From positions 32,001-96,000 of the IMG/VR virus record IMGVR_UViG_3300045988_082442: a DNA stretch of 64,000 bases; one strand, written 5' to 3'. The DNA is from a virus. The translations under genes and the position numbers were made by a program. Below, piece by piece: positions 9,019-63,861 of this stretch. Below the pieces are notes generated by a model. That model was not told where the DNA came from. It saw nothing but the letters and a program-made list of their open reading frames with translations, and ran no database searches. Within the stretch, counting starts at the first letter, position 1, and the number at the start of each line of letters is the position of its first letter.

Positions 9019-9019
9019 A

Positions 9020-17652: not shown

Positions 17653-17694
17653 GGAAAGTATTTGTCTAGTATAAAGGTCAAAAACAAATACTTT
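17653..17694. repeat. perfect 12-bp inverted repeat (hairpin) in an ORF-free region
   Basis: GAAAGTATTTGT (17653-17664) pairs with ACAAATACTTTC (17683-17694), leaving an 18-nt loop. Confidence 0.7.
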
Positions 17695-17936
17695 CAAAGA
17701 GCAGTTAGGAAGCAGAATATTCATTTTAAGTAAAGCACCCTCCTGAGTGCTTTGGAGTATTTGAACTTTTCCAGAAATTCTCCTTCTAACTAAAAATATT
17801 AAAGTATGCTAGTAATAAATTTAGAATAAAATATATCTCTTATAAGCTTTAAAATATATCAAGTATTTATTAGTTTTGTATAAGCTTTAAAATACTTCAA
17901 GCATTTAAGTAGTTTTAGAATATAACAATTTATTAT

Positions 17937-17951
17937 CAAAAGATGTTATAA
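17937..17951 (+). promoter_or_regulatory. extended -10 promoter cassette (AAAAGATGTTATAAT)
   Basis: TGnTATAAT with a conserved AAAGA upstream. The RBS and ATG of the helicase gene follow within 26 nt. Confidence 0.6.
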
Positions 17952-17976
17952 TATATGAAAGGTAGGTACATAACAA

Positions 17977-23104: not shown

Positions 23105-25786
23105 ATGAACTTAATACAAAATATTTTTCAAAACCCCAATTTTAAAGTTGAGGGTGACCATCATAAATTAAAGAAAAGAATATTGAAAGATATAATCAAC
23201 ATGAACTGGTTTAACGATTGTGATTTACTTATAGGATATTCAGATGGTCAAAGAGTATATACTAATCCAAAGCAATGGCAATTAGATGCAGCAAATAGTT
23301 TATTTGAGTTTTATTGGAATTATACAGTTGATAGATATACTAATTATGACGCACTAGAGGATGAAATTTATAACCACATGAAGAACTCAAAATATGTAGG
23401 GGTACAAACAACAGTATTACCAAAATTTACAATACCATTTAGAGCAGATAGTGGACAATGCATGATAGATGAAAATGGAAATCAAACATTTAGAGATGGA
23501 ACACCAACTAGACCATTTTATTCTTTAATCTATATTGCACAAAATGGATTTATTGATTTTGATGATAAGATTAGATTAAAAGACTGGGATTCAGTTATAA
23601 GAAGTAACCCTAAATATTTAAGATACTTTGAAACTTGTTTAGACCATTTTGCAGATGGTGAAAATAGTGTCAAGAAACAAATAAGAGATTTAGTTAAAAC
23701 ATATAAAGATTTTAGAGATTATTTGGACCCTAATCTTCCAATAGTAGAAGATAGAAAATGGTTGTATGATTTCTGTGTTGAAGTAGATGTAAAGTGTGAC
23801 CCTTATAAAAATTATGAAACAGAATTATTACATAAAAATGGTTTTATAGTTATGGGTGGTAATGAATATATTTATTATAATGATATACCATGTGTAAACT
23901 GTGGAAAACCACATTATAGAAATGGTTTATGTAAAGACTGTTGTGAAATGAATTTTAGAGATAGAATGATAGGTAATAAACTATATGGAAAAGCAAGTCA
24001 AAGAAGTAACTCAATGCATCTAAACGAAATAAAGTTAGCAGGTGCAGCTGCAAGTGCAAGTTCAAGTAGTTATAGAGTTAGTGGGGATACATCAAGACAA
24101 GCACACAGTATGGATGATGAGAGTATTATATCAGCAAGTACAAGTGCAATATCTAGCAGAGCAAGTAGAGCTGCAGGAGAACCAGCAACAGTAGGTATAA
24201 ATACATCTGGAAATTCAGCAGTTATAGTAGATGATGATATTGGTAACGCAGCAAGTTCAAATAGGTCAAGTTTTGTAAGTAGAGCTGCAGGTGTAAATCT
24301 ATCAAGTAGTATTACAGGTGTATCAACAGCAGTTTCAGAAGAAAGAATGTCAGACGCAAGTCATACAGCAGTAAAAAGTAACCCAAGTAGAGCTTCAGGT
24401 ATAACAGTTAGCCAGAATACAACTGGAATATCAACAGCAGTTTCAGAAGAAAGAATGTCAGACGCAAGTCATACAGCAGTTGCAAGTAAAGTAAGTAGAA
24501 TGCCAGGACAAAATATGGGAAATGTTACACAGGTAGGTACAACAACATCTGCTAGTAGTACATCTGTATCAGATGATGGTATTGGGGCAGCAGCAAATAC
24601 CAGTGTTTCAAGTGGAAGCAGTCAGTCAAGGGGACAAAATATTGGTATGCAAAAACCAAGTGCAACATCAAGTGTAATTGATGAGGAAACTTTACAATTT
24701 GCAAGTTATGATAGTAGAGTTGCAGCATTTACACATACTTCTGGTGCCTCAGATGTAACATCAAATGAAGAAGTACAAAGAGCAGGATTGGAATCAAGAA
24801 CAGCAGGTTTTCAAACAGCAGTTAGAGCTGTAAATATAGGAAACAGTGAATTTGCAAATTCTAGAACAAGAGTTGGTGTTAGCGTTGGAACTACAACATC
24901 AGAGCAATCATTTGCAAGGAATAAAGATACAGTTGATGAGACTGGAAAAGCAAGTAGGAGTAGTATTATAACATCCCCATCAGCAACAAATATAAATGAT
25001 GTTAATTTTATAGGAAATATAAAAGACTTTGTTTATACATCTCCTAATACAGTTAGATACTATTCATCTCAAGGTAAGATATTCGATATGACCATACCAA
25101 AAGGTTATAGATACCCAGATAATATATCAACAAATAGATTCTTTATGTTTGGTAGTTTTAATGGTAATCTTGAATTATTAAAACAATTCTGTCCACAAAA
25201 TGCTTTCGTATTTGACCCATTTGCAGGTCATGGAGATAGAGCATTATTCTTTATGGAATATGGTTGTAAAGCATATATAGGAAATGATACTAACGTAAAA
25301 GAATGGACATTTTTAAATGATAATCTAATCAAGTTAATAAACAAATACAAGAGATTTAACCAAAAATGTGAGGTTAGAATAAAGAACTCAATGATATATG
25401 AACCAGAATTAGAGAATAAAGTAGACTTTGTTTACACATCCCCACCATATTTTGATTTTGAAATGTATGATGGATTTACTGAACAGATAGCAGGAATGAA
25501 AACATACGATGACTTCCACAGAGAGTTTTCAGTACCTATATTCAAAAATGTATATAGATATATGAAAGATGGTGGTGTAGTTATTCTACAAACAGAAAAA
25601 GATGCAAAATTAAAACAAAAGTGGATAGATATGATGGTTAGTGTTGGTTTTAAAAACATTACAGAACATGATTTAAGTAATGAACAAAAACATGGAATAA
25701 ATAAAACTATTCAAGAGATAGGTATATTTGTTAAAGGTGACTATAACAGGGGAGAGGTAAAACAAACAACTAACACATTATTTTAG
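23105..25786 (+). CDS. three-part protein: conserved N-domain with Zn-ribbon, Ser/Ala-rich linker, C-terminal SAM-dependent methyltransferase domain
   Basis: VFDPFAGHGDRAL (motif I, FxGxG-like) is followed about 75 aa later by FVYTSPPYFDF (motif IV, SPPY). CVNCG..CKDCC sits in the N-domain. It is a paralogue of the next gene. Confidence 0.8.
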   Translation: MNLIQNIFQNPNFKVEGDHHKLKKRILKDIINMNWFNDCDLLIGYSDGQRVYTNPKQWQLDAANSLFEFYWNYTVDRYTNYDALEDEIYNHMKNSKYVGVQTTVLPKFTIPFRADSGQCMIDENGNQTFRDGTPTRPFYSLIYIAQNGFIDFDDKIRLKDWDSVIRSNPKYLRYFETCLDHFADGENSVKKQIRDLVKTYKDFRDYLDPNLPIVEDRKWLYDFCVEVDVKCDPYKNYETELLHKNGFIVMGGNEYIYYNDIPCVNCGKPHYRNGLCKDCCEMNFRDRMIGNKLYGKASQRSNSMHLNEIKLAGAAASASSSSYRVSGDTSRQAHSMDDESIISASTSAISSRASRAAGEPATVGINTSGNSAVIVDDDIGNAASSNRSSFVSRAAGVNLSSSITGVSTAVSEERMSDASHTAVKSNPSRASGITVSQNTTGISTAVSEERMSDASHTAVASKVSRMPGQNMGNVTQVGTTTSASSTSVSDDGIGAAANTSVSSGSSQSRGQNIGMQKPSATSSVIDEETLQFASYDSRVAAFTHTSGASDVTSNEEVQRAGLESRTAGFQTAVRAVNIGNSEFANSRTRVGVSVGTTTSEQSFARNKDTVDETGKASRSSIITSPSATNINDVNFIGNIKDFVYTSPNTVRYYSSQGKIFDMTIPKGYRYPDNISTNRFFMFGSFNGNLELLKQFCPQNAFVFDPFAGHGDRALFFMEYGCKAYIGNDTNVKEWTFLNDNLIKLINKYKRFNQKCEVRIKNSMIYEPELENKVDFVYTSPPYFDFEMYDGFTEQIAGMKTYDDFHREFSVPIFKNVYRYMKDGGVVILQTEKDAKLKQKWIDMMVSVGFKNITEHDLSNEQKHGINKTIQEIGIFVKGDYNRGEVKQTTNTLF
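24321..24480 (+). repeat. in-frame 108-nt-period duplication containing a perfect 52-nt repeat
   Basis: TATCAACAGCAGTTTCAGAAGAAAGAATGTCAGACGCAAGTCATACAGCAGT occurs at 24321-24372 and again at 24429-24480. It encodes STAVSEERMSDASHTAV twice. Confidence 0.9.
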
Positions 25787-31862: not shown

Positions 31863-32080
31863 TGAAATTGATAGATGGTGATAATACCTACAATGTTTTA
31901 ACTTTAAATTTAGATGAGGGAGATGTATTGGTAGTTGATTTTAAGGATAATCAGCCAAATGCAGAATCCCTATCTAAATATAGGGAATATTTGAAAGATA
32001 TATTTCCTAATAATAGAATATTATTTATATCAAATGGTATAGAGTTAGGAATCATAAAGGGAGGTAGTAATATTGAGTAA
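31862..32080 (+). CDS. hypothetical protein
   Basis: ORF lying between spoVG and groEL. Confidence 0.55.
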   Translation: MKLIDGDNTYNVLTLNLDEGDVLVVDFKDNQPNAESLSKYREYLKDIFPNNRILFISNGIELGIIKGGSNIE

Positions 32081-33707
32081 AAATATAAAATATGGAGAAG
32101 AAGCACAAAGTTCTGTTGTAGATGGTATAAATGCTGTTGCAGATATTGTTAAAACTACAATAGGACCAAAAGGCAGAAATGTTCTAATCAGAGAGAAAGG
32201 AACTACACCAGTAATAACTAACGATGGTGTTACAATAGCAAAATCAATACAATTAAAAGATAATACAGAAGACGCAGGTGCATCTTTAATAATATCAGCT
32301 GCACAAAAAACAAATGATATAGCAGGAGATGGAACAACTACAACTACTTTATTGTCATCTGAAATTATAAATAGAGGATTTGAAGCTATTGATAAATATA
32401 ACTTAAATCCAGTGCAACTACAAAAAGGTTTAATATCTTTATCTAATAAAATTAGTGATATGTTATTAGATAATGCTATTGAAGTGAAAGATGATGATAG
32501 CATAAAAAGAGTTGCTTCAATATCAAGTGGTAGTGATGTTACAGGTGAGCTAATTGCTAATGCTTTCAAAGATGCAGGTACTTATGGAACAGTAATAGTA
32601 GAGGATAGTAAAACAGGAGTAACTGGATTATCAACTGTTATGGGTATGAAATTACCAAATGGTTCAGTATCGCCTTATCTATTAGAAAGAAGTACATTAT
32701 CATCAGAAATAGATGATGTGAGTGTTTTAGTTATGAAAGATAAAATAGATAATGTACCAGATTTAATACCAGTATTAGATTCTTGTAATAGGGAAGGAAG
32801 AAGGCTTTTAATTATATGTGATGATATTGAATTTGAACCATTAAACTTTGTTGTTATGAATAAAGCAAGGGGAGCAATAAATGTAAATATAATTAGATTA
32901 CCAGGATTAAATAATGATTTAAGAAATGCTGTAACAGATGATATTTGCATTGCTACTGGAGCAACATTAGTTAGTAGAGAATCTGGTAGACCATTAAAAG
33001 CATTTACATCAGAATGGTTCGGTGAATTAGAAAGTGCAAAAATAGAATTAGAAGAAACAGTATTAAAATTTAAAGATATAAGTTCTACTGGTGAGAATTT
33101 ATTAGCAGATAGAGAAAATAGAGTAGCTGAATTAGAAACACAAAAAGAAACATTAGGTGTTGGAAAAGATACTACACATTATGATAAGAGAATAGCAAAT
33201 TTAGTTGGTGGAATTTCTGTGATTGAAGTTGGTGGAAATTCAGAAATAGAAATAAAGGATACTAAATTGAGAATTGAAGATGCTTTAAATTCTGTTAAAG
33301 CTGCTATTGAAGAAGGAATTGTAGCAGGTGGTGGTTATAGTTTCCTTGAAATTGTAAAACAATTAGGAAATACTAATATGACAGCAGATGATGCTATTGT
33401 TGCAGATATTCTTACAGAATCATTAAAATCAGTTACTAGACAGATAGCTGAAAATGCTGGAATGAATGGTGATGAAGTAGTTAAGACTTGTATTGAAAAA
33501 GGTAAGGGCTTAAATGCAATGACTGGAGAATATACAAATTTAATAGAATCTGGTGTTATAAATGCTGTAAAAGTAGATAGATATTGTGTACTAAATGCTG
33601 TAAGTGTTGCTGGTACAGTTCTAACAATGGGTGGGGCAATTATAGAGGAGAATGAAAAAGACCAAAATCTTCTACAACTTATAAACCCAGGAGTACCAGT
33701 AATATAA
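32073..33707 (+). CDS. groEL: GroEL-like chaperonin (Cpn60)
   Basis: The TTG start has a GGGAGG RBS. Contains MSKNIKYGEEA, TIGPKGRNV, AGDGTTTTT and VAGGG. The 544-aa size is typical. Confidence 0.92.
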   Translation: MSKNIKYGEEAQSSVVDGINAVADIVKTTIGPKGRNVLIREKGTTPVITNDGVTIAKSIQLKDNTEDAGASLIISAAQKTNDIAGDGTTTTTLLSSEIINRGFEAIDKYNLNPVQLQKGLISLSNKISDMLLDNAIEVKDDDSIKRVASISSGSDVTGELIANAFKDAGTYGTVIVEDSKTGVTGLSTVMGMKLPNGSVSPYLLERSTLSSEIDDVSVLVMKDKIDNVPDLIPVLDSCNREGRRLLIICDDIEFEPLNFVVMNKARGAINVNIIRLPGLNNDLRNAVTDDICIATGATLVSRESGRPLKAFTSEWFGELESAKIELEETVLKFKDISSTGENLLADRENRVAELETQKETLGVGKDTTHYDKRIANLVGGISVIEVGGNSEIEIKDTKLRIEDALNSVKAAIEEGIVAGGGYSFLEIVKQLGNTNMTADDAIVADILTESLKSVTRQIAENAGMNGDEVVKTCIEKGKGLNAMTGEYTNLIESGVINAVKVDRYCVLNAVSVAGTVLTMGGAIIEENEKDQNLLQLINPGVPVI

Positions 33708-41480: not shown

Positions 41481-42737
41481 ATGATAGATAGAATAGATGT
41501 GGAGTATGCACTACTGTTAAGTGTAGTTGAGAATAAGAATTTTGAAATTTTACTTAAAAATGATATAACTGAGGACTATTTTAGTAATACTGGTAAATTG
41601 ATATACCATCATATTGAAGATTATCTTAATAAATATTCAGAGTACATGCATGTAAATAATATACTTAAAGAGTTTGATATAGATTTAGATTATTATTCTA
41701 GCTTGAAGCTATTAGGTAACACACAATCTTTTATGGATACATTAAAACAACAACATGCATCAGATGTAATAGTTGATAAGTTGAGTGCTCTGAATGCAAG
41801 TTCAGGGTTGATATATACACAACCAGTAGAATTTCTGAAGTCTTTTGATGCAACTAATGATAGTTTAAAGCAACTTTTGGTAGAAAGGAAATCAGTAAAT
41901 TTATTAGATAACTTAGATAAGATTTTACAGTTAGATAGAAATAATGTTATAAAGACAGGATTTAAAGAACTAGATGATAAACTAATTGGTTGGAACAAAG
42001 GTGAGGAGCTTATAATTCTTATGGGTAGACCAGGACAGGGTAAATCATTTTTAGGTTTAAAGTTTTCTTTGGCAGCAGCAATACAGAAGTATAGAGTTGG
42101 TATTTATTCTGGAGAGATGTCAGAGGAACAAGTACAAAAAAGACTTATTATGCTAAATAAACAAGGTAGAACAATGACAGATGCAGAGTCAATAAGTGAT
42201 ATGAGAGCAAAAGATTTAAAACTTACGCTACTAACACAAAAAGAGTTACAAGGAAGAGCAACAGTAAAAGATTTAGAGTCAATGATATTAAAAGATGAGT
42301 TAGATTTTTTATTTGTAGACCAATTATCATTAATGGATGATTACCATTCAAGGGTATATGATACAAGAACCAGATTTGCAAATATATCAGCAGATTTGTT
42401 TTCATTGTCAATAAAATATTCAATACCAATAGTTTTAGCAGTACAAAGTAACAGAGATGGTGGTCTACAGAAAGATGCACCACAATTAGAGAATATAGCA
42501 GAATCAGATGTTGTAGGACAAAATGCAACAAGGGTTATTGGTATGAGAAGGGAAGCAAATATAACTACAATGAATATCTCAAAAAATAGATATGGTGATG
42601 ATAAGTTTATGCAAAAATATGATACAGATTTTGAGTTAGGTAAGTTTACACCAATAATGACAGCAGAGTCACCACTTGCACAAGCACAGGTACAATCACA
42701 GGCAAGAAAAAGAACATTAGGTTCTAGATATTTCTAA
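41481..42737 (+). CDS. dnaB: DnaB-type replicative helicase
   Basis: Contains GRPGQGKSFLGL (Walker A) and FLFVDQLSLM (Walker B) in a RecA-like C-domain, with a DnaB-like N-domain. Confidence 0.88.
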   Translation: MIDRIDVEYALLLSVVENKNFEILLKNDITEDYFSNTGKLIYHHIEDYLNKYSEYMHVNNILKEFDIDLDYYSSLKLLGNTQSFMDTLKQQHASDVIVDKLSALNASSGLIYTQPVEFLKSFDATNDSLKQLLVERKSVNLLDNLDKILQLDRNNVIKTGFKELDDKLIGWNKGEELIILMGRPGQGKSFLGLKFSLAAAIQKYRVGIYSGEMSEEQVQKRLIMLNKQGRTMTDAESISDMRAKDLKLTLLTQKELQGRATVKDLESMILKDELDFLFVDQLSLMDDYHSRVYDTRTRFANISADLFSLSIKYSIPIVLAVQSNRDGGLQKDAPQLENIAESDVVGQNATRVIGMRREANITTMNISKNRYGDDKFMQKYDTDFELGKFTPIMTAESPLAQAQVQSQARKRTLGSRYF

Positions 42738-42799
42738 TAAACATTTATAAGGATAATTTTACAATCCTTGCAAGAAGTTGCGAACTGTGTATTTTGATA

Positions 42800-43033
42800 T
42801 TTTTATAGCTATATAGGATAGCACAGATGTGAAAGAATAAGAATTTGCTTTATTAAGTACATGGTGTTTTATAGCTATATAGAATAACACAGGTGTAAAA
42901 GTTATACAATTATAAAACACGGTCATTTTGTGTTTTATAGCTATATAGAATAACACAGGTGTAAAAGAAGGTATATGATACAAGAACTAGATTTTCAGTT
43001 TTATAGCTATATAGAATAACACAGGTGTAAAAG
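42800..43033. CRISPR. mini-CRISPR array: four 36-nt repeats (one degenerate) and three 30-nt spacers
   Basis: GTTTTATAGCTATATAGAATAACACAGGTGTAAAAG occurs at 42866, 42932 and 42998. A copy with 5 mismatches is at 42800. The spacers at 42836-42865, 42902-42931 and 42968-42997 are all exactly 30 nt. Confidence 0.8.
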
Positions 43034-43081
43034 GTTGATATCCAACTAAATTTTTACAGTTTTAGATATGGGAGTAAGTAT

Positions 43082-44107
43082 ATGTATAATGTTGATTTTT
43101 TATTACAGTTAAAAGAGTATTTATATTCAAAAACAGGAAAAGTATATTTCAATAATATAAGAGATGGTAAAGAAGATATATTATGTACTTGTCCTATTCA
43201 TAAAGGTGGACAGGAAAGACACCCTAGTTGTGGTTTTTCTAAAATAGATAAAGAAAATATTAGTGCTGGATGGTTTCATTGCTTTAATTGTGGATTTACT
43301 GGTAATACATATACAGTTTTAAAAGAACTATTAGGTGAAAAGTTTGATAAAGAAGAAGCAAATAAAGTATTAGGAATTGAAGATTTTGAAGAAGATTATA
43401 GATTAAATAATAACCCAATAATCTTTACTATTCCACCAAAGGAACCAGTTAAATATGTAAGTAGAAAAGAATTAGAACAATACAGATACTATTCAGATTA
43501 TTTAAAATACAGGAATATCTCAATGAATACAGCAAATAAATTTGATATTGGAATGGATATAAGAACAAATGAAATAACATTTCCAATTAGAGATTATACA
43601 GGTAGGGCTTTAGCAGTAGGTAGGAGAAGTATTGCAGGAAAGAGATATGAGTACCCTTTGGGGTTTACAAAGCCATTGTATGGTGTTTATGAGTTACCAG
43701 TAATAATGAAAAATCAATATGTATGGGTTGTTGAAGGACCATTTAATCTGTGGAGTTTATATGAATATAAAGAAATAGGTGTAGCATTGTTAGGTACAGG
43801 AACACAAAGACAATTAGAACAGTTACTGACATTAGATTGTAAAGGTTTTATGTTGGCATTAGATGGGGATAAAGCAGGTAGAAGAGGTATAACAAAAATA
43901 GCTAAATTCTTACAAAGACATGGAAGAGAAGTTAGAGTGTACTGTGTACCAGATAATGAGGATATAAATAGTATGCCATCAAACTTATTTCCACAAATGG
44001 CAATAATGACATTTAGAGAATGGAGTAAGATGATAGCAAGAAGATTTAAAGATGAAGATAATTCTGGTAACAAAGATATACAACCAGAATTAGAGGATAT
44101 GAATTAG
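43082..44107 (+). CDS. dnaG: DnaG-type DNA primase
   Basis: Contains a zinc finger (CPIHKGGQERHPSCGF..CFNCG) and the TOPRIM motifs VVEGPFN and LDGDKAGRRG. Confidence 0.88.
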   Translation: MYNVDFLLQLKEYLYSKTGKVYFNNIRDGKEDILCTCPIHKGGQERHPSCGFSKIDKENISAGWFHCFNCGFTGNTYTVLKELLGEKFDKEEANKVLGIEDFEEDYRLNNNPIIFTIPPKEPVKYVSRKELEQYRYYSDYLKYRNISMNTANKFDIGMDIRTNEITFPIRDYTGRALAVGRRSIAGKRYEYPLGFTKPLYGVYELPVIMKNQYVWVVEGPFNLWSLYEYKEIGVALLGTGTQRQLEQLLTLDCKGFMLALDGDKAGRRGITKIAKFLQRHGREVRVYCVPDNEDINSMPSNLFPQMAIMTFREWSKMIARRFKDEDNSGNKDIQPELEDMN

Positions 44108-44912: not shown

Positions 44913-46232
44913 ATGGCAGATTTATTTGATTTAACAATACCAAATAAAAAGCAAGCTGCATCATCTGTTAGAAAGACAAAGAGAACTGGAGGTATGGGAT
45001 TAGGTGAAAGGGTTATGGAAGCAAGAAGAGCAGTTGAAACCTCACTTGCTGGTTATAAAGATAAAGTTAGAACTATCATAACAATAGATGACTTAATCTC
45101 ATACTTTGAAAATGCAGGAGATTTGATAGCAATAGATACTGAAACAATGGGGCTTAACTATTTTAGTGATTATATAGTTGGAATATCAATGAGTAATGGT
45201 GGGGAAGGTATTTATATACCATTAAACCATTCAAATTATGTATATGGAACTAGAGTAGAAGGTCAGTTAGATGTAAAAGATGTTGCAGAAGTATTTAAAA
45301 AGTATATGAATAATATTAAGTGGATATACCATAACTCAAAGTTCGACCTTAATGTCTTAAAAACAGCATTTGGATTTGATATGCCAATGCACTATTGGGA
45401 TACTTTGATATTTGCACATTTATATAGGTCAAATGAGGAACATGGTTTGAAATACTTATATAATAAATATATTGCATTAGAGGACGAAGGTGTAAATAAA
45501 TTTGACAAATTGTTTAATGGATTGACCTTTGACCTAATTCCAATTGATGTAGCAACAGTATATGCTGGAAAGGATGCTATAATGACACATAAGTTATTTG
45601 AATGGCAATACAGCATACTAGATACAGAATTTGCAGAATCAAAAGACTTATTTTTGAATATAGAGAACCCATTATCCTATTATGTAGCAGAGATGCAAAG
45701 AACTGGTGTAGAATATGACAAGGAAGCATCTGATAAGTTAAGTGCAGAATTATTTAAAGAACAAGCAGAGGCTGAAAAGGTTGTATATAATGAGATAAAT
45801 AAATATAAATCACAAATAGATGAATACAAAATAACACACCCAAAGAATCCATTGGAAGACCCAATAAATCTAAAAAGTGAAAAACAATTAAGTACACTAT
45901 TTTATGATATTATAGGTTACAAAACAAAGGCAGGTAAAGGAACTGGTAGAGAAATATTACAAGAAATAAATGATGATTTGTGTAAGTCATTACTGAAATT
46001 AAGAACACTAACAAAATTGATAGATGCATTTATAGTAAGTTTGCCAGGGTTTATAGAACCAACAGATGGAAGAATACATACAAGTTTAAATCAGGATGGC
46101 ACAGAAACAGGAAGATTTAGTTCAAGTAAACCAAACCTACAACAAATTCCTGCAAGAAATCCAATAGGAAAGAAAATCAGACAATTATTTAAAGCATCCC
46201 CAGGTTATGTAATGATGTCTTCAGATTTCAGT
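44913..46232 (+). CDS. polA: family-A DNA polymerase, exon 1 (3'-5' exonuclease and start of pol domain)
   Basis: Contains IAIDTET (Exo I) and YHNSKFDL. The exon ends with ..MMSSDFS, the first half of motif A (DxSQxExR). Confidence 0.9.
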
Positions 46233-46547
46233 TAAATGATGGCTGCCTAGTAGGGTGACCTGCTAGTGAATAAACCACCTAATTCGGTGAAACCTTAGCA
46301 AGTAAAGTTGAAGGTAATACCGAGCAAAATATTATTTTATCTTGTGGATTTATAAATAATATTGTGTGTAGAGACTATCAAAATCATAGTATAAAAGAAA
46401 TATTTATATGAATAAGAGAGTAGAGTAAGACTTAAGCAAGTTTGAAATGGTGGTTATCTTATAAAGGTTAAAACAATATAAGATAAAGAGCTAGTCCGAC
46501 ACTTACAGAAATGTAAGAAATAATTTAGCGAATTATTAAACAGTGTG
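46233..46547 (+). mobile_element. ORF-less group I intron splitting polA motif A
   Basis: Exon 1 ends in U and the intron ends in G. Core elements: P UAAUUCGGUGAAAC (46281), Q AAUACCGAGC (46317), R GUAGAGACUAUCA (46369), S AAGAGCUAGUCCG (46487). Confidence 0.85.
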
Positions 46548-47489
46548 CAACAAGAACCAAGGGTACTTTGTCATTTATGCAATGATGAGCATTTAAGAAA
46601 AGCCTATGCAGATGGAAAAGACATATATGCTGAGATGGCTTCTAAAGCATTTCATGAAACCTATGAGAATTGTAGAGAGTTTTATGTAGATGAAAATGGA
46701 AACAAGATATTAGGTGATGATGGGGAACCAATAGAAAATGTAGAGGGGCATAAAAGAAGGTCAAGAATAAAGGGTGTTTTGTTAGGGCTATTATATGGAG
46801 AGTCAACAGCTACAATGGCTGAAGGAGCAGGAATATCAACAGATGAGGCACAACAAATAATTGATGACTTCTTTAAGGCTTACCCAAGAATACAAGAGTA
46901 TATCAATACACAACAGAAGATTGCAAAAGAAAGAGGATATACACTAACTCTCTGGGGTAGGAAAAGAATAATACCAAATATACAGAGAGAAGAATATGAG
47001 TTTTCATATAATGAAAATAGAAGAGTAGACTTTAATCCTATGTTCTGGAGTGATGATGTTGCAAGTACAGAAGTTAAAGATGAAATCAAACAACAATACA
47101 TCCAGAAACTAGAAAAAGCAAACTTTAATACAAAAAGAAAAATAATAGAACAAGCCAGATTAGCAGGTATTGATATTAGAGATAATAAAAAATATATTGC
47201 AGAGGCAAATAGAAAAGTTGTAAATAGTATAGTTCAAGGCACTGCAGCTGACATGAGCAAGTTAGCAATGTTAAAGATTGCAACTAATAAAGAACTAAGG
47301 GATTTAGGGTTTAGACAGTTATTCCCAGTACATGATGAAATAATAGGGGAATGTCCTATGGAAAACAAGGATAGATGTGCAGAGCTTATGAGTAAAATGA
47401 TGATAGAAGCAGGAGCTACAAAAGTTAGTGTACCTATGAAATGTGACGTTGCCAAATTTATAAACTGGGAAGGCGAAGGTATAAAATAG
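46548..47489 (+). CDS. polA: family-A DNA polymerase, exon 2
   Basis: Begins QQEPRVLCHL (the rest of motif A). Also contains RRSRIKGVLLGLLYG (motif B) and PVHDEI (motif C). Confidence 0.9.
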   Translation, partial: QQEPRVLCHLCNDEHLRKAYADGKDIYAEMASKAFHETYENCREFYVDENGNKILGDDGEPIENVEGHKRRSRIKGVLLGLLYGESTATMAEGAGISTDEAQQIIDDFFKAYPRIQEYINTQQKIAKERGYTLTLWGRKRIIPNIQREEYEFSYNENRRVDFNPMFWSDDVASTEVKDEIKQQYIQKLEKANFNTKRKIIEQARLAGIDIRDNKKYIAEANRKVVNSIVQGTAADMSKLAMLKIATNKELRDLGFRQLFPVHDEIIGECPMENKDRCAELMSKMMIEAGATKVSVPMKCDVAKFINWEGEGIK

Positions 47490-54891: not shown

Positions 54892-55140
54892 ATGCAACTA
54901 AAAGAATTTAAAAATATTATAGACACTATGTTTAGTAAATATGGTGATATTGATATTATGATAGATTTAGCCACAAATAATGATGTAGATGATACTATAT
55001 ATAAAGATATTGAAACTGGGAATATTTATACAGAGCAAGTTTTAGATATTTCAGAAGTGAAAGATAATACAGGTGATAACGTCGAGGGTATATGTATATC
55101 TAACTATAAAATGAAGAATAATAATTGGGGAAGGGAGTAG
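54892..55140 (+). CDS. hypothetical protein
   Basis: I chose the ATG at 54892 after GAGGAG. Confidence 0.5.
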   Translation: MQLKEFKNIIDTMFSKYGDIDIMIDLATNNDVDDTIYKDIETGNIYTEQVLDISEVKDNTGDNVEGICISNYKMKNNNWGRE

Positions 55141-55145
55141 ATAAG

Positions 55146-56294
55146 ATGTATAAACCAAAAAGAGGGTTATGGACTTCTGAGGATGTAAGTCCACAACATC
55201 CAGACAGGGCAATGGATTTTGTTTCTGACTATATAATGGATAAGTTTGTTAAGGAAGACCCAAAATCACATGTTGCAATAGATGGTACTAATAAAAATGA
55301 ATGGGTTGTTTTAACTGGAGAAATTAGTTCAAGTGCAAATATTGATATTGAGGAAGCAGTTAAAGAGGCATATAAAGAAATAGGTTACACTTTTGAACCT
55401 AGAGTTATAAATTTGATATATAAGCAATCACCAGATATTGCACAGGGAATTGAGAAAGATGATGAAGAAATAGGTGCAGGTGACCAAGGTATAATGATAG
55501 GTTATGCAAATATAGAATCAGATGAGTATTTACCATTGGCACTATACTTGTCAAAGAGAATAATTAGTGAATTATATAAGGCAAAAGACATATATCCATT
55601 TATGAGAGGTGATATGAAATCACAGGTTACAATAGATTATGACAAGGAAGAGCCAGAAGTAAATACTATTGTGGTTGCTTGTCAACATACAGAAGATGCT
55701 AATATAGAGATGTTGAAAGATACTATAAAGGGTATTGTAAATCAAGTATTAATGAATGCAAATGTAAAGGTATCCAATAATTTAATATGGCATATAAATG
55801 GAACTGGAAAATTTGTAATAGGTGGACCAGAAGGTGATAGTGGAGAAGTAGGAAGAAAACTTATTTGTGATTCTTATGGTGGATATGCAGCTATTGGTGG
55901 TGGTAATACACATGGTAAAGATGCCACAAAAGTAGACGCTTCAGCTGCTTATGCTACAAGATGGTTGGCTAAGAATATTGTTGCTTCTGGATTATCAGAT
56001 GAGTGTGAGGTACAATTAGGCTATGTAATAGGTGTTGCAGAGCCAGTATCTATAAATGTTGATTTGAAAGGACAACAGAAAACATCTGTAACAGAAGAAG
56101 ATATAGAAAGGTTTATAGAAGAGAATATATCTTTATCAGTAAAAGGAATTATAGATAGATTTGATTTAAGAAGACCTTTAAGACATATTTGGTCAAGACA
56201 AGGATACACTGGTAACTCATTTAGTACAGTAACACCACCTTGGGAGGAATTAGATTTAATAGATGATTTGAGGTTAATTTCTTATTATGGGTAA
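55146..56294 (+). CDS. metK: S-adenosylmethionine synthetase
   Basis: Contains TSEDVSPQHPDR, GAGDQGIMIGYA and GGGNTHGKD..KVD.SAAY, the MetK hallmark motifs. I chose the start at 55146 because it has a GGGAG RBS. Confidence 0.9.
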   Translation: MYKPKRGLWTSEDVSPQHPDRAMDFVSDYIMDKFVKEDPKSHVAIDGTNKNEWVVLTGEISSSANIDIEEAVKEAYKEIGYTFEPRVINLIYKQSPDIAQGIEKDDEEIGAGDQGIMIGYANIESDEYLPLALYLSKRIISELYKAKDIYPFMRGDMKSQVTIDYDKEEPEVNTIVVACQHTEDANIEMLKDTIKGIVNQVLMNANVKVSNNLIWHINGTGKFVIGGPEGDSGEVGRKLICDSYGGYAAIGGGNTHGKDATKVDASAAYATRWLAKNIVASGLSDECEVQLGYVIGVAEPVSINVDLKGQQKTSVTEEDIERFIEENISLSVKGIIDRFDLRRPLRHIWSRQGYTGNSFSTVTPPWEELDLIDDLRLISYYG

Positions 56295-57728: not shown

Positions 57729-57810
57729 ATATAGATAGATGTTCTGATTACAAGATTGCTATATAACGAGAGAAACATCATGTGCATAGTATATGAGTGG
57801 AGGTATTGTT

Positions 57811-58464
57811 ATGAGTAATCCAGATGAAGAAAGTAGTAAACAAAATAACAATCTAGAGCTAACACATGATGAAGCTTTAGAGTTGTTTGAAAAGAATAAG
57901 GGATTGGCAGAGAGTTTTGCTAGAAAATATTATAAAACAGGTTATTGGGAATTTGACCATGCCTTACAGATAGCTTATGAGGGACTATGGAGGGCTTGTA
58001 TGCACTTTAAGCCTTCCAAAGGGTTCCAGTTATCAACATTGGCTTGGAGAATAATGACCAATAGGTTTATAGAAGAACAAAAGGAAATAGACCGTCAACC
58101 AAAGATATTATTTAGCGTTGATGAATTTTCAGTTGAAGATGGTTTTGATGAGGGAAATTTACCCTTAACATTAATGGATGTTTTAGAGGATGATGCAAGT
58201 AGTGTTGACCAATTAGTAGAAGCAGATAGCTTGAGAGAATTAAAACAAGATATAGTGTATATATTAGATGATATTGCAGATGAGCTAAAGGTTTCTAAAA
58301 GGGTTGTAAAGACAGCTTATATGTGTTTAAATGAACAGATGTTATATAAGAATGCAGAGACAAAACAGGAAATAAACGCATTGTCAAAATTAGTTGGTAC
58401 ATCATTAATAAGAAAAGTTAAAACAATGCTTCAAGAAAAGTTATCAGATTTAGACTATAACTAA
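57811..58464 (+). CDS. sigma-70 family RNA polymerase sigma factor
   Basis: The region 2 pattern is LAESFARKYY..ALQIAYEGLWRACMHFKPSKGFQLSTLAWRIMTNRFIE. There is a region-4-like C-terminus. I chose the start at 57811 after GGAGG. Confidence 0.8.
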   Translation: MSNPDEESSKQNNNLELTHDEALELFEKNKGLAESFARKYYKTGYWEFDHALQIAYEGLWRACMHFKPSKGFQLSTLAWRIMTNRFIEEQKEIDRQPKILFSVDEFSVEDGFDEGNLPLTLMDVLEDDASSVDQLVEADSLRELKQDIVYILDDIADELKVSKRVVKTAYMCLNEQMLYKNAETKQEINALSKLVGTSLIRKVKTMLQEKLSDLDYN

Positions 58465-61698: not shown

Positions 61699-63861
61699 AT
61701 GTCAGTATCTCATAAGCAAATACATAATACAAGAATTACAAAAATTATGATAGGGGGTAGAATTATGTCAGTATATTATAAAGAAGTATTAAGATTATTT
61801 AAAGGTGTTCTTACAGATGAACATATTAATGAAATACCAGATGAGGAAGCATTAAAGTATGGTGTCTATATATTTAAAGATTTCCCAGAAGAAGTGAAAA
61901 AAGAAGCCATAAAACAATATGGTAGAAATGGGGAAGAAGCTAATCAAACATTTCATAAGTCATTATTTAAAGTTGCAAAAGCAGATGAAATACAGCTATA
62001 TTTTGAACAATTAGTTCACTATTTAACAACTTATGGAGCAGAGCAATTAGGTATTTATGATTCTGATACTGTGTTTATTCCAAAAGAAAAGTTAGAGATA
62101 CCAGAATTATTAGAAGATACAAAGCTAGTAGTAATAAAACCAATTACAGAATCTGAATTAAGGGATAGAATAAAAGAAATGATTACATCTAATATTGCAT
62201 TGTCAAAGCAAACAGTAAAGGACATTGTTGCTTTAAGTGATTATATAGATGTAAAAGAATATTCAGAGGGTGATAATTATCTATGTAAGATACAAAATAA
62301 AGAGGTTAGGTCAGCATTATATGGTAAGTTTGGTATATTACCTAAAAGGGGTGACGAGTTTTTAAGATATTTTATTGCTAAGAAATGTGATACTACATTA
62401 TTGATTAAGAGCAAGGAACTAGAAAGAGAAATTAGTTGGGTATCCCCAGCTGAGACATTAGAATTATTAAAAAGGTATAAAGAACAATATGGATTAGAGA
62501 ATCTTTCAAAAGTATTTAATAGGTTTAAACCATTATTCCTATCAATGAAATCACACCCAAAGGATACAATAGCACAATATTATAGAAAAGAAGATTTAGA
62601 TTGTATGGCAGAATTAAATAAATATATCAACTACATATCTAAATCTAGTAAGAAGTATCATACACCTATGAGAGATAATGATTTAAACAAATTTGTAGAA
62701 TGGGTTGGCTCATTAGATAGCTCTGATACTAATGCTTATAAGAAAGCAATTTATGAGAAATTTGATAATGCAGGGATTTACACAGCTATTAGAATATTGA
62801 ATTATCTTAAAAGAGAGAAATCATCAAAGTTAGATTTCAAACTTTATAAGGTTAGAAATGGTAAAATTTATGTTAAAGATAATACAGAAATAATTAGTTC
62901 TAATTTTACATTATTACAAATAATAGTAGAAAATTATATAGTTGAGCATATCAAACAAAATGTTAGTGGTAAGACAGTATATATTCCTGATGAGATTTCT
63001 TATAGATTACCTCAATCAGAAAAACAATATACAGGAAACATACCATTTGGTTCAGTAGTAACAGTTGACAAACAACCTTTGCTTGTTGGTATTCATTGGT
63101 GCAATGTGAAGTATGATGATTATGAACATAGAGTAGACTTAGATTTACATTTGACATCTAGTAACAGAAGTTATGGCTGGAATGCTGGTTACAGAAGTAG
63201 TAATAACTCTATTATATTTACTGGTGATAATACTGATGCACCTTTACCAAAAGGTTCCTCTGAATTTATGTATATAAGTAATGACGTTGCAGATAAATGT
63301 TTTGAATTAAAGATAAACAATTATACAAGAGATGTTGGACCAATTCCATACGAAATTATAATAGGTAAAGCAAATCCAAATGCTCATTATGCAGACAATA
63401 GAAATTTCATAATAGACCCTAATGATATTTTGGTTAAAATTCCAATGCAAATGGAATTAGGTCAGGCAGAACAAGTTGTTGGTATTATATCAATGCAAGA
63501 CACATCAATAGATTTGATAATGACTGATTTAGTAACATCTAATCAAAGGGTATCAAATAATAAAGAGTTTAGTCAAAAGATAAGAACATTTATACTAGAG
63601 CAATCAAGACTACAAATGGATTTGAAAAGAGCATTATTAATGTCTGGTGCTAATATAGTAGATAAACCATACACTGTAATAGAGGTACCTTATGTTTATA
63701 CATCTAATAATATTATGATTAGTAAAGAAATAGCAGATAAAGAAGGTATAGAGTATCTACCAGAAAATATTTATAGCAAAAAAGAGAAAGTACCAGTAGA
63801 TATAGATTTCAGCTTAGAATCTTTAACAAAGGATAGTTTTATAAAGTTATTAAAGAAATAG
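61699..63861 (+). CDS. large hypothetical protein (alternative in-frame start at 61765)
   Basis: 720-aa ORF. The RBS and ATG are duplicated 66 nt apart. No motif assigned. Confidence 0.75.
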   Translation: MSVSHKQIHNTRITKIMIGGRIMSVYYKEVLRLFKGVLTDEHINEIPDEEALKYGVYIFKDFPEEVKKEAIKQYGRNGEEANQTFHKSLFKVAKADEIQLYFEQLVHYLTTYGAEQLGIYDSDTVFIPKEKLEIPELLEDTKLVVIKPITESELRDRIKEMITSNIALSKQTVKDIVALSDYIDVKEYSEGDNYLCKIQNKEVRSALYGKFGILPKRGDEFLRYFIAKKCDTTLLIKSKELEREISWVSPAETLELLKRYKEQYGLENLSKVFNRFKPLFLSMKSHPKDTIAQYYRKEDLDCMAELNKYINYISKSSKKYHTPMRDNDLNKFVEWVGSLDSSDTNAYKKAIYEKFDNAGIYTAIRILNYLKREKSSKLDFKLYKVRNGKIYVKDNTEIISSNFTLLQIIVENYIVEHIKQNVSGKTVYIPDEISYRLPQSEKQYTGNIPFGSVVTVDKQPLLVGIHWCNVKYDDYEHRVDLDLHLTSSNRSYGWNAGYRSSNNSIIFTGDNTDAPLPKGSSEFMYISNDVADKCFELKINNYTRDVGPIPYEIIIGKANPNAHYADNRNFIIDPNDILVKIPMQMELGQAEQVVGIISMQDTSIDLIMTDLVTSNQRVSNNKEFSQKIRTFILEQSRLQMDLKRALLMSGANIVDKPYTVIEVPYVYTSNNIMISKEIADKEGIEYLPENIYSKKEKVPVDIDFSLESLTKDSFIKLLKK

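What the first reader, a model, noticed from the sequence alone, without database searches (positions are those of the whole stretch)
42800..43033. Orphan mini-CRISPR array (4 repeats, 3 spacers) between the phage helicase and primase genes
Seen directly: the 36-nt unit GTTTTATAGCTATATAGAATAACACAGGTGTAAAAG is identical at 42866-42901, 42932-42967 and 42998-43033. A copy with 5 mismatches sits at 42800-42835. The three unique segments between them are each exactly 30 nt, giving a period of 66 nt. Identical repeats separated by unrelated, equal-length unique sequence, with a degenerate terminal repeat, is CRISPR architecture rather than simple tandem duplication. The 36/30 geometry, the lack of a strong internal hairpin and the GTTTTAnAGCTAT start resemble class 2 type II repeats as I remember them. 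No cas gene is recognisable anywhere in the 64 kb, so the array would have to use the host's Cas machinery. Virus-borne mini-arrays are known but rare. This one sits inside a replication module. Its transcription direction is unresolved: the degenerate repeat is on the left, which would favour leftward transcription.
Basis: partly seen in the sequence, partly recalled or inferred. Interest (0 to 1): 0.9.

Follow-up and report, generated by a model that had tools for sequence, protein, structure and literature searches.

The report
Orphan CRISPR mini-array in gut jumbo phage
A ~214-kb gut phage carries a small cas-less CRISPR array between its helicase and primase genes, and one spacer matches the helicase gene of sibling phages but not its own, which fits the known use of such arrays in phage-versus-phage competition.

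Summary
Three identical 36-nt repeats, one 5-mismatch copy and three unrelated 30-nt spacers lie at 42800-43033, between a DnaB-like helicase and a DnaG-like primase.

It behaves like a real CRISPR array, not a conserved structural element or a tandem duplication:
- Phages with ~70% identical helicases lack the whole ~325-nt cassette.
- Near-identical genomes from other samples carry three alleles at the locus: S1-S2, S1-S2-S3, and two different spacers with a variant repeat.
- S3 matches codons 291-300 of the adjacent helicase gene. It matches 27/30 in its own genome and 28/30 in sibling strains and in a relative. The relative has no mismatch in the last 15 nt.

The first 13 nt of the repeat equal those of a verified type II-A repeat. 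Repeat variation falls mainly in the 3' half, and the first repeat in that orientation is the decayed one. This suggests a type II-like array read on the + strand.

No cognate host array, tracrRNA or cas gene was found in about 84 kb of the phage, in GTDB representative genomes, or in the JGI and IMG/VR collections. Type and host dependence therefore remain inferred.

Verdict: a new member of the known class of virus-borne mini-arrays, of moderate interest.

The parts
42738..42799 (+). Upstream flank of the cassette (62 nt). It is leader-like and holds a hairpin (AAGGAT-N9-ATCCTT) and a weak sigma-70-like site (TAAACA-16-TACAAT).
   Evidence: Absent from relatives, whose helicase-primase gap is only 9-20 nt. 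Promoter-like site. The first ~40 nt are conserved in all array alleles, but the part next to the first repeat diverges in allele iii.
42800..42835 (+). Degenerate repeat R' (TTTTTATAGCTATATAGGATAGCACAGATGTGAAAG), with 5 mismatches at positions 1, 18, 22, 28 and 32.
   Evidence: The same sequence is present in every S1-S2 and S1-S2-S3 assembly.
42836..42865 (+). Spacer S1 (AATAAGAATTTGCTTTATTAAGTACATGGT); target unknown.
   Evidence: No match with up to 7 mismatches in the 312 kb held. A T3G variant occurs in other samples. Its core (positions 8-26) appears reverse-complemented as a 19-nt spacer in allele iii.
42866..42901 (+). Repeat copy 2, identical to the consensus.
42902..42931 (+). Spacer S2 (TTATACAATTATAAAACACGGTCATTTTGT); target unknown. 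Its 5' 17-19 nt are complementary to the 5' part of the repeat.
   Evidence: (I2/I3). R-S2-R folds at -25.9 kcal/mol (z = -4.9), and about 1% of genomic 30-mers do as well. A 31-nt variant occurs in ERZ920283.
42932..42967 (+). Repeat copy 3, identical to the consensus.
42968..42997 (+). Spacer S3 (AAGGTATATGATACAAGAACTAGATTTTCA). It is present in only some genomes and matches the helicase gene of the phage family.
   Evidence: Present in the window/L057 and in L053. Absent from L055, L056 and L058. Protospacer matches.
42998..43033 (+). Repeat copy 4, identical to the consensus and nearest the primase.
43034..43081 (+). Downstream flank. About the first 30 nt belong to the cassette, followed by the primase RBS (GGGAG). 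On the - strand it holds TGTAAAAAT (reverse complement of 43050-43058), an extended -10-like motif.
   Evidence: Identical in all three alleles, apart from a single-base variant (ATATTCAAC) in three truncated Logan contigs. Relatives have only the RBS here. The -10-like motif was read directly.
42351..42380 (+). Self copy of the S3 protospacer in the helicase gene (codons 291-300, RVYDTRTRFA). It matches S3 at 27/30, with mismatches at spacer positions 2, 21 and 28.
   Evidence: The best match of shuffled 30-mers in the window was 24/30.
41481..42737 (+). DnaB-like replicative helicase. It is context for the array and the gene family that S3 targets.
   Evidence: Pfam DnaB_C, E=6e-25.
43082..44107 (+). 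DnaG-like primase (context).
   Evidence: Pfam Toprim_2 and Zn_ribbon_DnaG.

Best explanation
This is a genuine, cas-less CRISPR mini-array carried by a ~214-kb phage of an anaerobic (probably human-gut) bacterium with low G+C. It was inserted as a ~325-nt cassette between the helicase and primase genes of one phage lineage.

The most likely mechanism has four steps, all inferred:
1. During infection the array is transcribed rightward, with the replication genes.
2. Each spacer plus the 5' ~20 nt of the following repeat forms a type II-style crRNA.
3. That crRNA is loaded, with a tracrRNA, into a Cas9-type effector supplied by the host.
4. Spacer S3 then directs cleavage of the DnaB helicase gene of co-infecting sibling or related phages. 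The carrier's own helicase allele is spared by mismatches, two of them in the PAM-proximal seed.

This would be heterotypic superinfection exclusion, that is, competition between viruses.

Shown here:
- the array architecture;
- that the insertion is specific to one lineage;
- the allelic turnover of spacers;
- the spacer-protospacer relationship;
- the mismatch pattern between self and non-self.

Inferred:
- the direction of transcription;
- the type II affiliation;
- use of host Cas proteins;
- actual interference.
For: 1. Architecture. Identical 36-nt repeats and unrelated 30-nt spacers.

2. Not a conserved element.
- Four related phage lineages with helicases 67-73% identical have the helicase and primase genes 9-20 nt apart, with no array.

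3. Three alleles at the same locus in near-identical genomes from different samples.
- Allele i: R'-S1-R-S2-R.
- Allele ii: the same plus S3-R, seen in the window (= ERZ28663717) and in ERZ28593457.
- Allele iii: Ra-SpA-Ra-SpB-Rb in ERZ28616394, with other spacers and a repeat variant.

4. S3 matches helicase codons 291-300 on the coding strand.
- Own allele H1: 27/30, mismatches at positions 2, 21 and 28.
- Sibling allele H2: 28/30, mismatches at 6 or 9 and at 28.
- Relative L015: 28/30, mismatches at 3 and 15, so its 3' 15 nt are perfect.
- Chance gives at most 24/30.
- Every S3 carrier has the H1 allele.
- Targeting an adjacent gene in close relatives but not in the carrier is the published signature of virus-borne mini-arrays (PMC6858448; PMC11656645).

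5. H2 strains carry a local patch of divergence (92-95% identity against 99-100% elsewhere) that spans the protospacer region.

6. Type II-like, + orientation.
- Repeat nt 1-13 (GTTTTATAGCTAT) equal those of a 36/30 array beside cas9-cas1-cas2-csn2 in an Erysipelotrichaceae MAG with 26-28% GC.
- Nearly all differences between repeat variants (11 of 13 across R', Ra, Rb and the L058 variant) lie at positions 18-32. Nt 2-17 are otherwise constant, apart from C10G in Rb. This fits the part of the repeat retained in a type II crRNA.
- The decayed copy is the first repeat, which type II does not need (PMC12080349).

7. No cas genes among the ORFs scanned in the 64-kb window or the genes called in the 10 kb on each side. 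Cas9, Cas1 and Cas2 all have Pfam models.
Against: - No cognate array was found. The exact repeat is absent from IMG/VR, from 185,579 GTDB representative genomes and from JGI metagenomes.
- Block patterns found only unrelated arrays or chance hits.
- A search with peptides translated from the repeat found nothing.
- The repeat matches no Rfam CRISPR-DR or tracrRNA family.
- The tracrRNA of the closest type II-A locus pairs with the phage repeat no better than with shuffled sequence (-7.6 against -39 kcal/mol for its own repeat).
- No tracrRNA-like anti-repeat occurs in the window beyond chance.
- Targets of S1, S2 and SpA are unknown.
- S3 has no perfect match among the genomes held.
- Presence of S3 does not track the S1 SNP, so gain and loss of S3 cannot be told apart, and active acquisition into the phage array is not shown.
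- About 130 kb of the phage genome could not be read, so a phage-encoded effector is not excluded.
- Promoter predictions do not settle the strand.
Confidence: 0.6

Rival explanations
1. The same array is read on the - strand, with the leader at the primase side. It would then serve an effector whose crRNA carries the repeat-derived handle 5' of the spacer, such as type V, type VI or a class 1 type. The crRNA from S3 would be antisense to helicase mRNA, so RNA targeting would be possible.
For: - The canonical rule places the degenerate repeat far from the leader and the variable spacer close to it. This fits a leader on the right.
- S3 has the same sense as the helicase mRNA, so its complement could target that RNA.
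- An extended -10-like TGTAAAAAT lies on the - strand at 43050-43058.
- The - strand repeat folds weakly (-3.9 kcal/mol, z = -1.7). Two of the Ra substitutions keep that stem paired.
Against: - There is no stable stem-loop of the kind found in Cas12a or Cas13 handles.
- The 13-nt identity with a verified type II-A repeat applies to the + orientation.
- Transcription would run against all neighbouring genes.
- Collateral RNase or abortive-infection outcomes would also harm the resident phage (established knowledge of types III and VI).
- The cassette brings only ~30 nt on the right but 62 nt on the left.
Confidence: 0.15
2. The array is an anti-defence RNA device rather than an anti-phage weapon. 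Its repeat units would act as crRNA mimics (Racr) or CRISPR-like regulatory RNAs (Cracr). These would soak up host Cas proteins or redirect them to silence host cas, tracrRNA or toxin genes. S1 and S2 would be the regulatory guides.
For: - Phages are known to carry solitary repeats and array-like Cracr units (PMC10651486 and bioRxiv 10.1101/2024.10.29.618823; PMC11656645).
- S1 and S2 are conserved in alleles i and ii and match no phage sequence held.
- S2 is anti-repeat-like, so it resembles part of a tracrRNA gene.
- Allele iii has a truncated 19-nt spacer.
Against: - S3 is a full-length spacer with a clear protospacer in related phages and seed mismatches to its own genome. A decoy has no need for this.
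- The complementarity of S2 is only marginally above chance (about 1% per spacer, three spacers tested).
- No host target could be tested.
Confidence: 0.12
3. The array is a non-functional relic, captured once from a host or another element by recombination. It would now be decaying, and the alleles would reflect only deletions and recombination between repeats.
For: - No cognate system was found.
- The first repeat is degenerate, one spacer is 19 nt, and one has a 31-nt variant.
- Presence or absence of S3 can be explained by repeat-repeat deletion, and it does not track the S1 SNP.
Against: - Three or four repeats remain perfectly identical, and nt 2-17 are conserved across all variants apart from one substitution (C10G in Rb).
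- The cassette is retained in the same place in at least 9 independent samples.
- Allele iii has a different 30-nt spacer, which deletion alone cannot produce.
Confidence: 0.1
4. It is not CRISPR at all. The repeats would be iterons or binding sites for a replication or regulatory protein, for example an origin between the helicase and primase genes, with the palindrome TATAGCTATA as the binding core.
For: - It lies in the replication module.
- The repeat contains a 10-bp palindrome.
- The 66-bp period is close to six helical turns.
Against: - It is absent from related phages that have the same replication genes.
- The spacers have a fixed 30-nt length but unrelated sequence.
- One spacer is a 30-nt copy of a relative's helicase codons.
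- Alleles have entirely different spacers.
- 36-nt identical units at a 66-nt spacing are unlike known iterons (general knowledge).
Confidence: 0.03

Closest known systems
Virus-borne CRISPR mini-arrays used in conflicts between viruses (Saccharolobus portogloboviruses SPV1/SPV2, Medvedeva et al. 2019, PMC6858448; phage and prophage mini-arrays reviewed in PMC11656645)
   Same: - No cas genes nearby.
- Only 2-3 spacers, in an intergenic position.
- Different spacers at the same locus in closely related viruses.
- A spacer aimed at a gene next to the array in close relatives.
- Point mismatches at the carrier's own copy (compare).
   Different: - Published mini-arrays have repeats identical to those of the host's arrays. 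No host array with this repeat was found here.
- Three spacers exceed the strict '1-2 spacers' definition.
- The carrier is a ~214-kb bacterial jumbo phage and the repeat is type II-like.
- Reciprocal targeting between alleles was not seen, because SpA has no match in the DNA held.
Type II CRISPR arrays (II-A as in the Erysipelotrichaceae MAG SUG468 locus L036; II-C polarity as described in PMC12080349)
   Same: - 36-nt repeat and 30-nt spacers.
- The first 13 nt are identical to a verified II-A repeat.
- No strong hairpin within the repeat.
- The first repeat in crRNA orientation is the mutated one, and the variable spacer sits at the last repeat, as reported for II-C.
   Different: - The 3' 23 nt of the repeat are unrelated to the II-A repeat; overall identity is 23/36.
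- It ends in AAAAG, not AAAAC.
- No tracrRNA, cas9, cas1 or cas2 is present in the window or its 10-kb flanks.
- The SUG468 tracrRNA does not pair with it beyond 11 bp.
- No clear promoter lies within the repeat.
CRISPR arrays and systems of huge phages (metagenomic jumbo phages; cited in PMC11656645)
   Same: A jumbo phage (over 200 kb) assembled from metagenomes, carrying CRISPR components without an adaptation module.
   Different: Many of those phages encode their own effectors next to the array. No effector was found here in about 84 kb, and the other ~130 kb were not read.
RNA anti-CRISPRs and viral CRISPR-like regulatory RNAs (Racr, PMC10651486; Cracr, bioRxiv 10.1101/2024.10.29.618823)
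   Same: Phage-borne repeat units without cas genes, sometimes arranged like arrays.
   Different: Those act as decoys or repressors, with no spacer or only a partly matching one. S3 is a full 30-nt spacer with a protospacer in related phages.

Membership tests
CRISPR array (generic) | Direct repeats of 23-50 nt that are near-identical, separated by unique spacers of similar, fixed length | tested here: met
   Three identical 36-nt repeats plus one degenerate copy. Spacers are 30 nt each and unrelated (6-13/30 identity, null mean 9.0)..
CRISPR array (generic) | Spacers derive from foreign genetic elements (protospacer matches) | tested here: met
   S3 matches helicase codons 291-300 of the phage family at 27-28/30, against a chance maximum of 24/30. 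S1, S2 and SpA have no match.
CRISPR array (generic) | Spacer content varies between closely related genomes while the repeats are kept | tested here: met
   Three alleles at the same locus in genomes about 97-100% identical in the flanking genes.
CRISPR array (generic) | Transcribed and processed into crRNAs | not testable with these tools
   No RNA data were available. Promoter-like matches are not above the shuffled expectation (13 found against 9.0 +/- 2.8).
Virus-borne mini-CRISPR array | Located in a viral genome with no associated cas genes | tested here: met
   - Phage hallmark genes are present in the window or its flanks: DnaB, primase, PolA, UvsX/RecA-like recombinase, clamp loader, holin, amidase and baseplate gp25.
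- No Cas families were found among 44 scanned window ORFs (all of 275 aa or more) or among the called genes of the 10-kb flanks; about 38 smaller window ORFs were not scanned.
- About 130 kb of the genome were not read.
Virus-borne mini-CRISPR array | Repeats identical or near-identical to those of the host's CRISPR arrays | tested here: inconclusive
   - No identical repeat in GTDB representatives, JGI metagenomes or IMG/VR.
- The 11-nt 5' block pattern found only II-A arrays sharing 13-14 nt.
- The 3' block patterns found nothing relevant.
- The searches needed exact blocks and covered one genome per species, so a cognate array could have been missed.
Virus-borne mini-CRISPR array | Spacers target closely related viruses, while the carrier's own locus is mismatched | tested here: met
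   S3 against its own H1 allele has 3 mismatches (positions 2, 21, 28). Against the sibling H2 allele it has 2. Against relative L015 it has 2, both far from the 3' end.
Virus-borne mini-CRISPR array | Only 1-2 spacers | tested here: not met
   The window allele has 3 spacers. Alleles i and iii have 2. This is a nominal size criterion.
Type II CRISPR-Cas (array component) | 36-nt repeat with ~30-nt spacers and a GTTTTA...-type 5' end shared with known type II repeats | tested here: met
   Nt 1-13 are identical to the repeat of a cas9-cas1-cas2-csn2 locus. The geometry is 36/30.
Type II CRISPR-Cas (array component) | A tracrRNA whose anti-repeat pairs with the repeat | tested here: not met
   - There is no anti-repeat in the window beyond chance.
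- Rfam gives no tracrRNA hit.
- The SUG468 tracrRNA pairs at -7.6 kcal/mol, the same as with shuffled sequence.
- A host tracrRNA could not be searched for.
Type II CRISPR-Cas (array component) | An associated Cas9, in cis or in the host | not testable with these tools
   None was found in the ~84 kb examined. The host is unknown.
Type II CRISPR-Cas (array component) | A consistent PAM 3' of the protospacers | tested here: inconclusive
   Only one protospacer family is known. Its 3' flank is AATATMTC in all genomes, including the carrier's own.
Type IV-A CRISPR-Cas | DinG (Csf4) together with Csf1, Csf2, Csf3 and Csf5 beside an array | tested here: not met
   ORF 17977-20259 matches the PADLOC typeIV_DinG model (E=3e-81). 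None of the neighbouring ORFs matches any Csf or Cas model, and the array lies 23 kb away.

The most novel reading that the evidence does not exclude
The repeat family has no counterpart in any bacterial array that could be searched. The array might therefore not simply borrow a host array's identity.

Two readings remain open:
- It works with an effector or tracrRNA encoded in the unread ~130 kb of the phage, or with an undescribed type II-like host system.
- The conserved spacer S2, whose 5' 17-19 nt look like an anti-repeat, was taken from a tracrRNA gene. It would then turn the host's Cas9 against its own tracrRNA/cas locus. The array would combine anti-defence guides (S1, S2) with an anti-competitor guide (S3).

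The in-place reverse-complemented, truncated copy of S1 in allele iii would then point to an unusual way of integrating or editing spacers.
Probability: 0.1. Interest if true: 0.8.

Novelty: new member of a known kind. Interest (0 to 1): 0.5.

Why it matters
Cas-less mini-arrays are thought to let a virus use the host's CRISPR machinery against its closest competitors. Direct evidence comes mainly from archaeal viruses.

This locus would be a clean bacterial example from the gut, for four reasons:
- The carrier is a jumbo phage found repeatedly in many metagenomes.
- The locus has three array alleles.
- One spacer is aimed at an essential replication gene of sibling strains.
- Those siblings show a patch of sequence divergence around the targeted site.

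Together these make arms races between phages, and their role in strain divergence, testable with data that already exist.

The repeat may also help identify the unknown host and its Cas9. A Cas9 from a very AT-rich organism, with an unusual repeat, could have practical value.

Tried and rejected
Searches for a cognate array
- The exact 36-mer gave no hit in IMG/VR, GTDB representative genomes or JGI metagenomes.
- The 5' 17-mer in IMG/VR gave six single chance hits.
- The 3' 19-mer in IMG/VR gave none.
- The two-block 5' pattern in GTDB returned only two true arrays, both II-A and sharing just 13-14 nt. The other hits were coding or other tandem repeats.
- The two-block 3' pattern in metagenomes returned collagen-like and other chance repeats.
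- BLAST of the whole cassette against phage and plasmid collections found nothing relevant.
- A search of 5.8 billion proteins with peptides translated from the repeat, meant to catch arrays mis-called as genes, found nothing.
- A literature search for strings from the repeat found nothing.

Searches for spacer targets
- The 3' 22-mers of S1, S2 and S3 gave no hit in IMG/VR.
- DNA and peptide scans of all loci held found only the S3 match.
- A 16/19 resemblance of the S1 core to the start of the 367-aa gene in L015 needs indels to extend and is at chance level, so it was rejected.

SUG468 as the host
- Its GC content fits, but none of its 24 spacers matches the phage, and its tracrRNA does not pair with the phage repeat.

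Other checks
- Rfam found no CRISPR-DR or tracrRNA family, only spurious miRNA-like hairpin hits caused by the S2-repeat hairpin.
- The type IV idea raised by the DinG hit was rejected because there are no Csf genes.
- The large ORFs of unknown function (896, 788 and 720 aa) have no Pfam, PHROG, PADLOC or PDB sequence hits and no RuvC or zinc-finger signature. They were not modelled.
- An argument that S3 was gained, based on parsimony, was dropped once more alleles showed that S3 does not track the S1 SNP.
- A lookup of sample accessions in the literature found nothing.
Full report
**1. Observation**

The sequence is as described.
- GTTTTATAGCTATATAGAATAACACAGGTGTAAAAG occurs identically at 42866, 42932 and 42998.
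- A copy with five mismatches (positions 1, 18, 22, 28, 32) lies at 42800-42835.
- The three intervening segments are each 30 nt, giving a 66-nt period.
- No match is expected by chance.
- The spacers are no more alike than random 30-mers from the window: 6-13 of 30 identical, null mean 9.0. This is therefore not a diverged tandem duplication.
- The array fills most of a 344-nt gap between a DnaB-like helicase (41481-42737) and a DnaG-like primase (43082-44107).

**2. Context**

- The window has ~29% G+C, and almost all genes from 9.6 kb onward lie on the + strand.
- It encodes a replication and nucleotide-metabolism module:
  - replication and repair: PolA, a processivity factor, a UvsX/RecA-like recombinase, clamp-loader subunits, a 5'-3' exonuclease, SbcC/SbcD-like proteins and a DinG-like helicase;
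  - nucleotide metabolism: anaerobic NrdD and ThyX;
  - other: two large methyltransferases, GroEL and a sigma factor.
- The window is 100% identical to ENA ERZ28663717 scaffold_17, which is 213,644 nt long.
- Sibling contigs of 210-217 kb exist. The flanks hold baseplate, holin and amidase genes.
- It is therefore a ~214-kb jumbo phage of an anaerobe. The sample names suggest human gut cohorts, which is an inference.
- The closest annotated phages, at 35% helicase identity or less, infect Firmicutes. Nothing similar exists at the DNA level in GenBank phages or in IMG/VR.

**3. Is it an array or a conserved element?**

Three lines of population evidence bear on this.

(a) The cassette is specific to one lineage.
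- Four related phage lineages have helicases 67-73% identical and the same gene order.
- Their helicase stop and primase start are only 9-20 nt apart.
- A ~325-nt cassette was therefore inserted in one lineage: 62 nt of left flank, the array, and ~30 nt of right flank.
- A replication origin or regulatory structure would be expected to be shared.

(b) Near-identical genomes from other samples carry three alleles.
- Allele i: R'-S1-R-S2-R (ERZ27303220, ERZ920283, SRR6874853).
- Allele ii: the same plus S3-R at the primase end (the window, and ERZ28593457).
- Allele iii (ERZ28616394): Ra-SpA-Ra-SpB-Rb.
  - It has a repeat variant with three changes, all in the 3' half.
  - It has a new 30-nt spacer, SpA.
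  - It has a 19-nt spacer, SpB.
- Small variants also occur: a SNP in S1, a 31-nt S2, and an A22G change in one repeat.

(c) S3 has a protospacer.
- It matches helicase codons 291-300 on the coding strand.
- The match is 27/30 in the carrier's own gene (42351-42380), against a maximum of 24/30 for shuffled 30-mers.
- It is 28/30 in two sibling strains with a different helicase allele, H2 (mismatches at positions 6 or 9, and 28).
- It is 28/30 in a more distant relative, L015 (mismatches at 3 and 15).
- It is 25-26/30 in the other relatives.
- S3 encodes KVYDTRTRFS, exactly the L015 peptide. The carrier's own gene encodes RVYDTRTRFA.
- Every genome that carries S3 has the H1 allele, which has three mismatches. 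Two of them lie within 10 nt of the 3' end of the spacer.
- H2 strains differ from H1 by a cluster of substitutions around the protospacer: 92-95% identity in that window, against 99-100% elsewhere.
- A precise 30-nt piece of a relative's gene, set between two perfect repeats, is what Cas1-Cas2 integration produces. Iterons or slippage do not produce this.

**4. Comparison with the literature**

- Medvedeva et al. (PMC6858448) describe mini-arrays in viruses with these properties:
  - they lack cas genes;
  - spacers differ at the same locus in close relatives;
  - they target regions close to the array in the related virus;
  - the carrier's own locus is mutated.
- They also note that phage mini-arrays show the same pattern.
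- The 2024 review (PMC11656645) gives the same definition. It adds that the repeats are identical to those of the host.
- This locus matches on all points except the last, which I could not establish.

**5. Which type and which strand?**

For a type II-like array read on the + strand:
- The 36/30 geometry fits.
- Nt 1-13 equal those of the repeat GTTTTATAGCTATGTTGTTTCAAATGATTCCAAAAC. That repeat belongs to a 22-repeat array beside cas9-cas1-cas2-csn2 in an Erysipelotrichaceae MAG with 26-28% G+C.
- There is no strong hairpin within the repeat.
- Nearly all differences between repeat variants (11 of 13) fall at positions 18-32. Nt 2-17 stay constant apart from C10G in Rb. These nt 2-17 are the part kept in a mature type II crRNA (established knowledge).
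- The decayed copy is the first repeat, which no type II crRNA needs. In II-C arrays this 'extra' repeat accumulates mutations and spacers enter at the last repeat (PMC12080349). That mirrors R' on the left and the variable S3 on the right.
- With a 3' PAM, the carrier's own protospacer has two seed mismatches and L015 has none.

Against, or unresolved:
- The 3' 23 nt of the repeat are unrelated to the II-A repeat.
- The SUG468 tracrRNA does not pair with the phage repeat better than with shuffled sequence.
- The window has no anti-repeat.
- Rfam recognises nothing.
- Promoter-like matches exist on both strands at background frequency.
- The same observations can be read on the - strand, with a canonical leader at the primase side and an effector that uses a 5' handle. 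The S3 crRNA would then be antisense to helicase mRNA.
- I rate the - strand reading lower for three reasons: the repeat lacks a Cas12/Cas13-type stem, its sequence affinity is to type II, and collateral-damage systems would harm the resident phage.
- Presence of S3 does not track the S1 SNP. A recent gain therefore cannot be distinguished from recurrent loss by repeat-repeat recombination.

**6. The cognate Cas system was not found**

- The exact repeat is absent from IMG/VR, from 185,579 GTDB representative genomes and from JGI metagenomes.
- Block patterns tolerant of changes in the other half of the repeat found only unrelated arrays or chance repeats.
- A search with peptides translated from the repeat found nothing.
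- No Cas family was detected among the ORFs scanned in the window or the genes called in 10 kb on each side.
- The DinG-like helicase at 17977-20259 matches a 'type IV-A associated DinG' model, but it has no Csf partners. It is best read as an ordinary phage DinG/XPD helicase.
- About 130 kb of the genome could not be read with the tools available.
- 'Uses host Cas9' therefore remains the most economical inference, not a result.

**7. Two oddities remain**

- S2 and the repeat:
  - The first 17-19 nt of S2 are complementary to repeat nt 1-17 (13 Watson-Crick and 2 G-U pairs).
  - R-S2-R folds into a long hairpin (-25.9 kcal/mol, z = -4.9).
  - Only about 1% of genomic 30-mers do as well.
  - With three spacers tested this is suggestive, not secure.
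  - It could be chance, a spacer taken from a tracrRNA gene or from another array, or a regulatory feature.
- SpB and S1:
  - In allele iii the 19-nt spacer SpB is the exact reverse complement of S1 positions 8-26.
  - The flanking repeats keep their orientation.
  - I have no satisfactory explanation, and a read-level check is needed.

**8. Verdict**

- The most likely function is exclusion of closely related phages by targeting their replicative helicase gene.
- The type II assignment and dependence on the host are plausible but unproven.
- This kind of element is already known, so I class it as a new member of a known kind. It has some unusual features: no detectable cognate repeat, II-C-like polarity, an anti-repeat-like spacer and an inverted spacer allele.
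- Interest is moderate (0.5).

Noticed in passing
window 46223-46518 (+): A group I intron (Rfam RF00028, 51.2 bits, E=3e-12) splits the PolA gene into ORFs 44913-46235 and 46545-47489. The whole-window gathering scan missed it. In other strains the same site holds a GIY-YIG homing endonuclease ORF or other inserts, and some relatives have an unsplit 751-753-aa PolA.
   Followed up: partly
window 17977-20259 (+): A 760-aa DinG/XPD-like helicase matches the PADLOC model 'typeIV_DinG, CAS-IV-A associated' over its full length (E=3e-81). None of the neighbouring ORFs matches any Csf or Cas model. It is probably an ordinary phage helicase.
   Followed up: partly
L054 1256-1274 (ERZ28616394 scaffold_34) versus window 42843-42861: In a sibling genome's array, a 19-nt spacer is the exact reverse complement of the core of spacer S1, while the flanking repeats keep their orientation. 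This is unexplained and could be an assembly artefact.
   Followed up: partly
window 42902-42950: The 5' 17-19 nt of spacer S2 are complementary to the first 17 nt of the repeat, so R-S2-R forms a long hairpin (z = -4.9). About 1% of genomic 30-mers do as well. The hairpin also causes spurious miRNA-family hits in Rfam.
   Followed up: yes
window 42330-42540, compared with L024/L056 and L054: Two sibling strains carry a local patch of substitutions in the helicase gene that spans the S3 protospacer region (92-95% identity against 99-100% elsewhere). This fits recombination or selection at a targeted site.
   Followed up: partly
window ~6900-9020 (- strand); L051 and L052 16000-18300: A serine hydroxymethyltransferase gene is broken into pieces by an HNH/NUMOD4 endonuclease gene in this strain. 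In a sibling strain it is interrupted by a GIY-YIG endonuclease gene instead. These look like mobile homing elements that differ between strains.
   Followed up: no
window 24277-24522: A 108-nt tandem repeat (1.9 copies, 79-85% matches) lies inside the 893-aa ORF whose C-terminus is an N6/N4 DNA methyltransferase domain.
   Followed up: no
window 17210-17976, with a tandem repeat at 17841-17916: A 767-nt stretch with no ORF of 90 aa or more lies upstream of the DinG-like gene and contains a 38-nt unit repeated twice (86% matches).
   Followed up: no
window 9650-12340, 14843-17209 and 61699-63861 (+): Three large ORFs (896, 788 and 720 aa) have no meaningful hit in Pfam, PHROGs, PADLOC or PDB sequences; the one exception is a marginal Cas10b match for the 720-aa ORF (E=0.0035, no stretch significant on its own). 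The 896-aa protein is rich in Ser, Thr, Asn and Gly and may be structural. None was modelled.
   Followed up: partly
window 32073-33707, 55125-56294, 57793-58464, 3-830 and 2447-3115: The phage encodes a GroEL-type chaperonin, an S-adenosylmethionine synthetase, a sigma-70 region-2 protein, anaerobic ribonucleotide reductase NrdD and ThyX.
   Followed up: no
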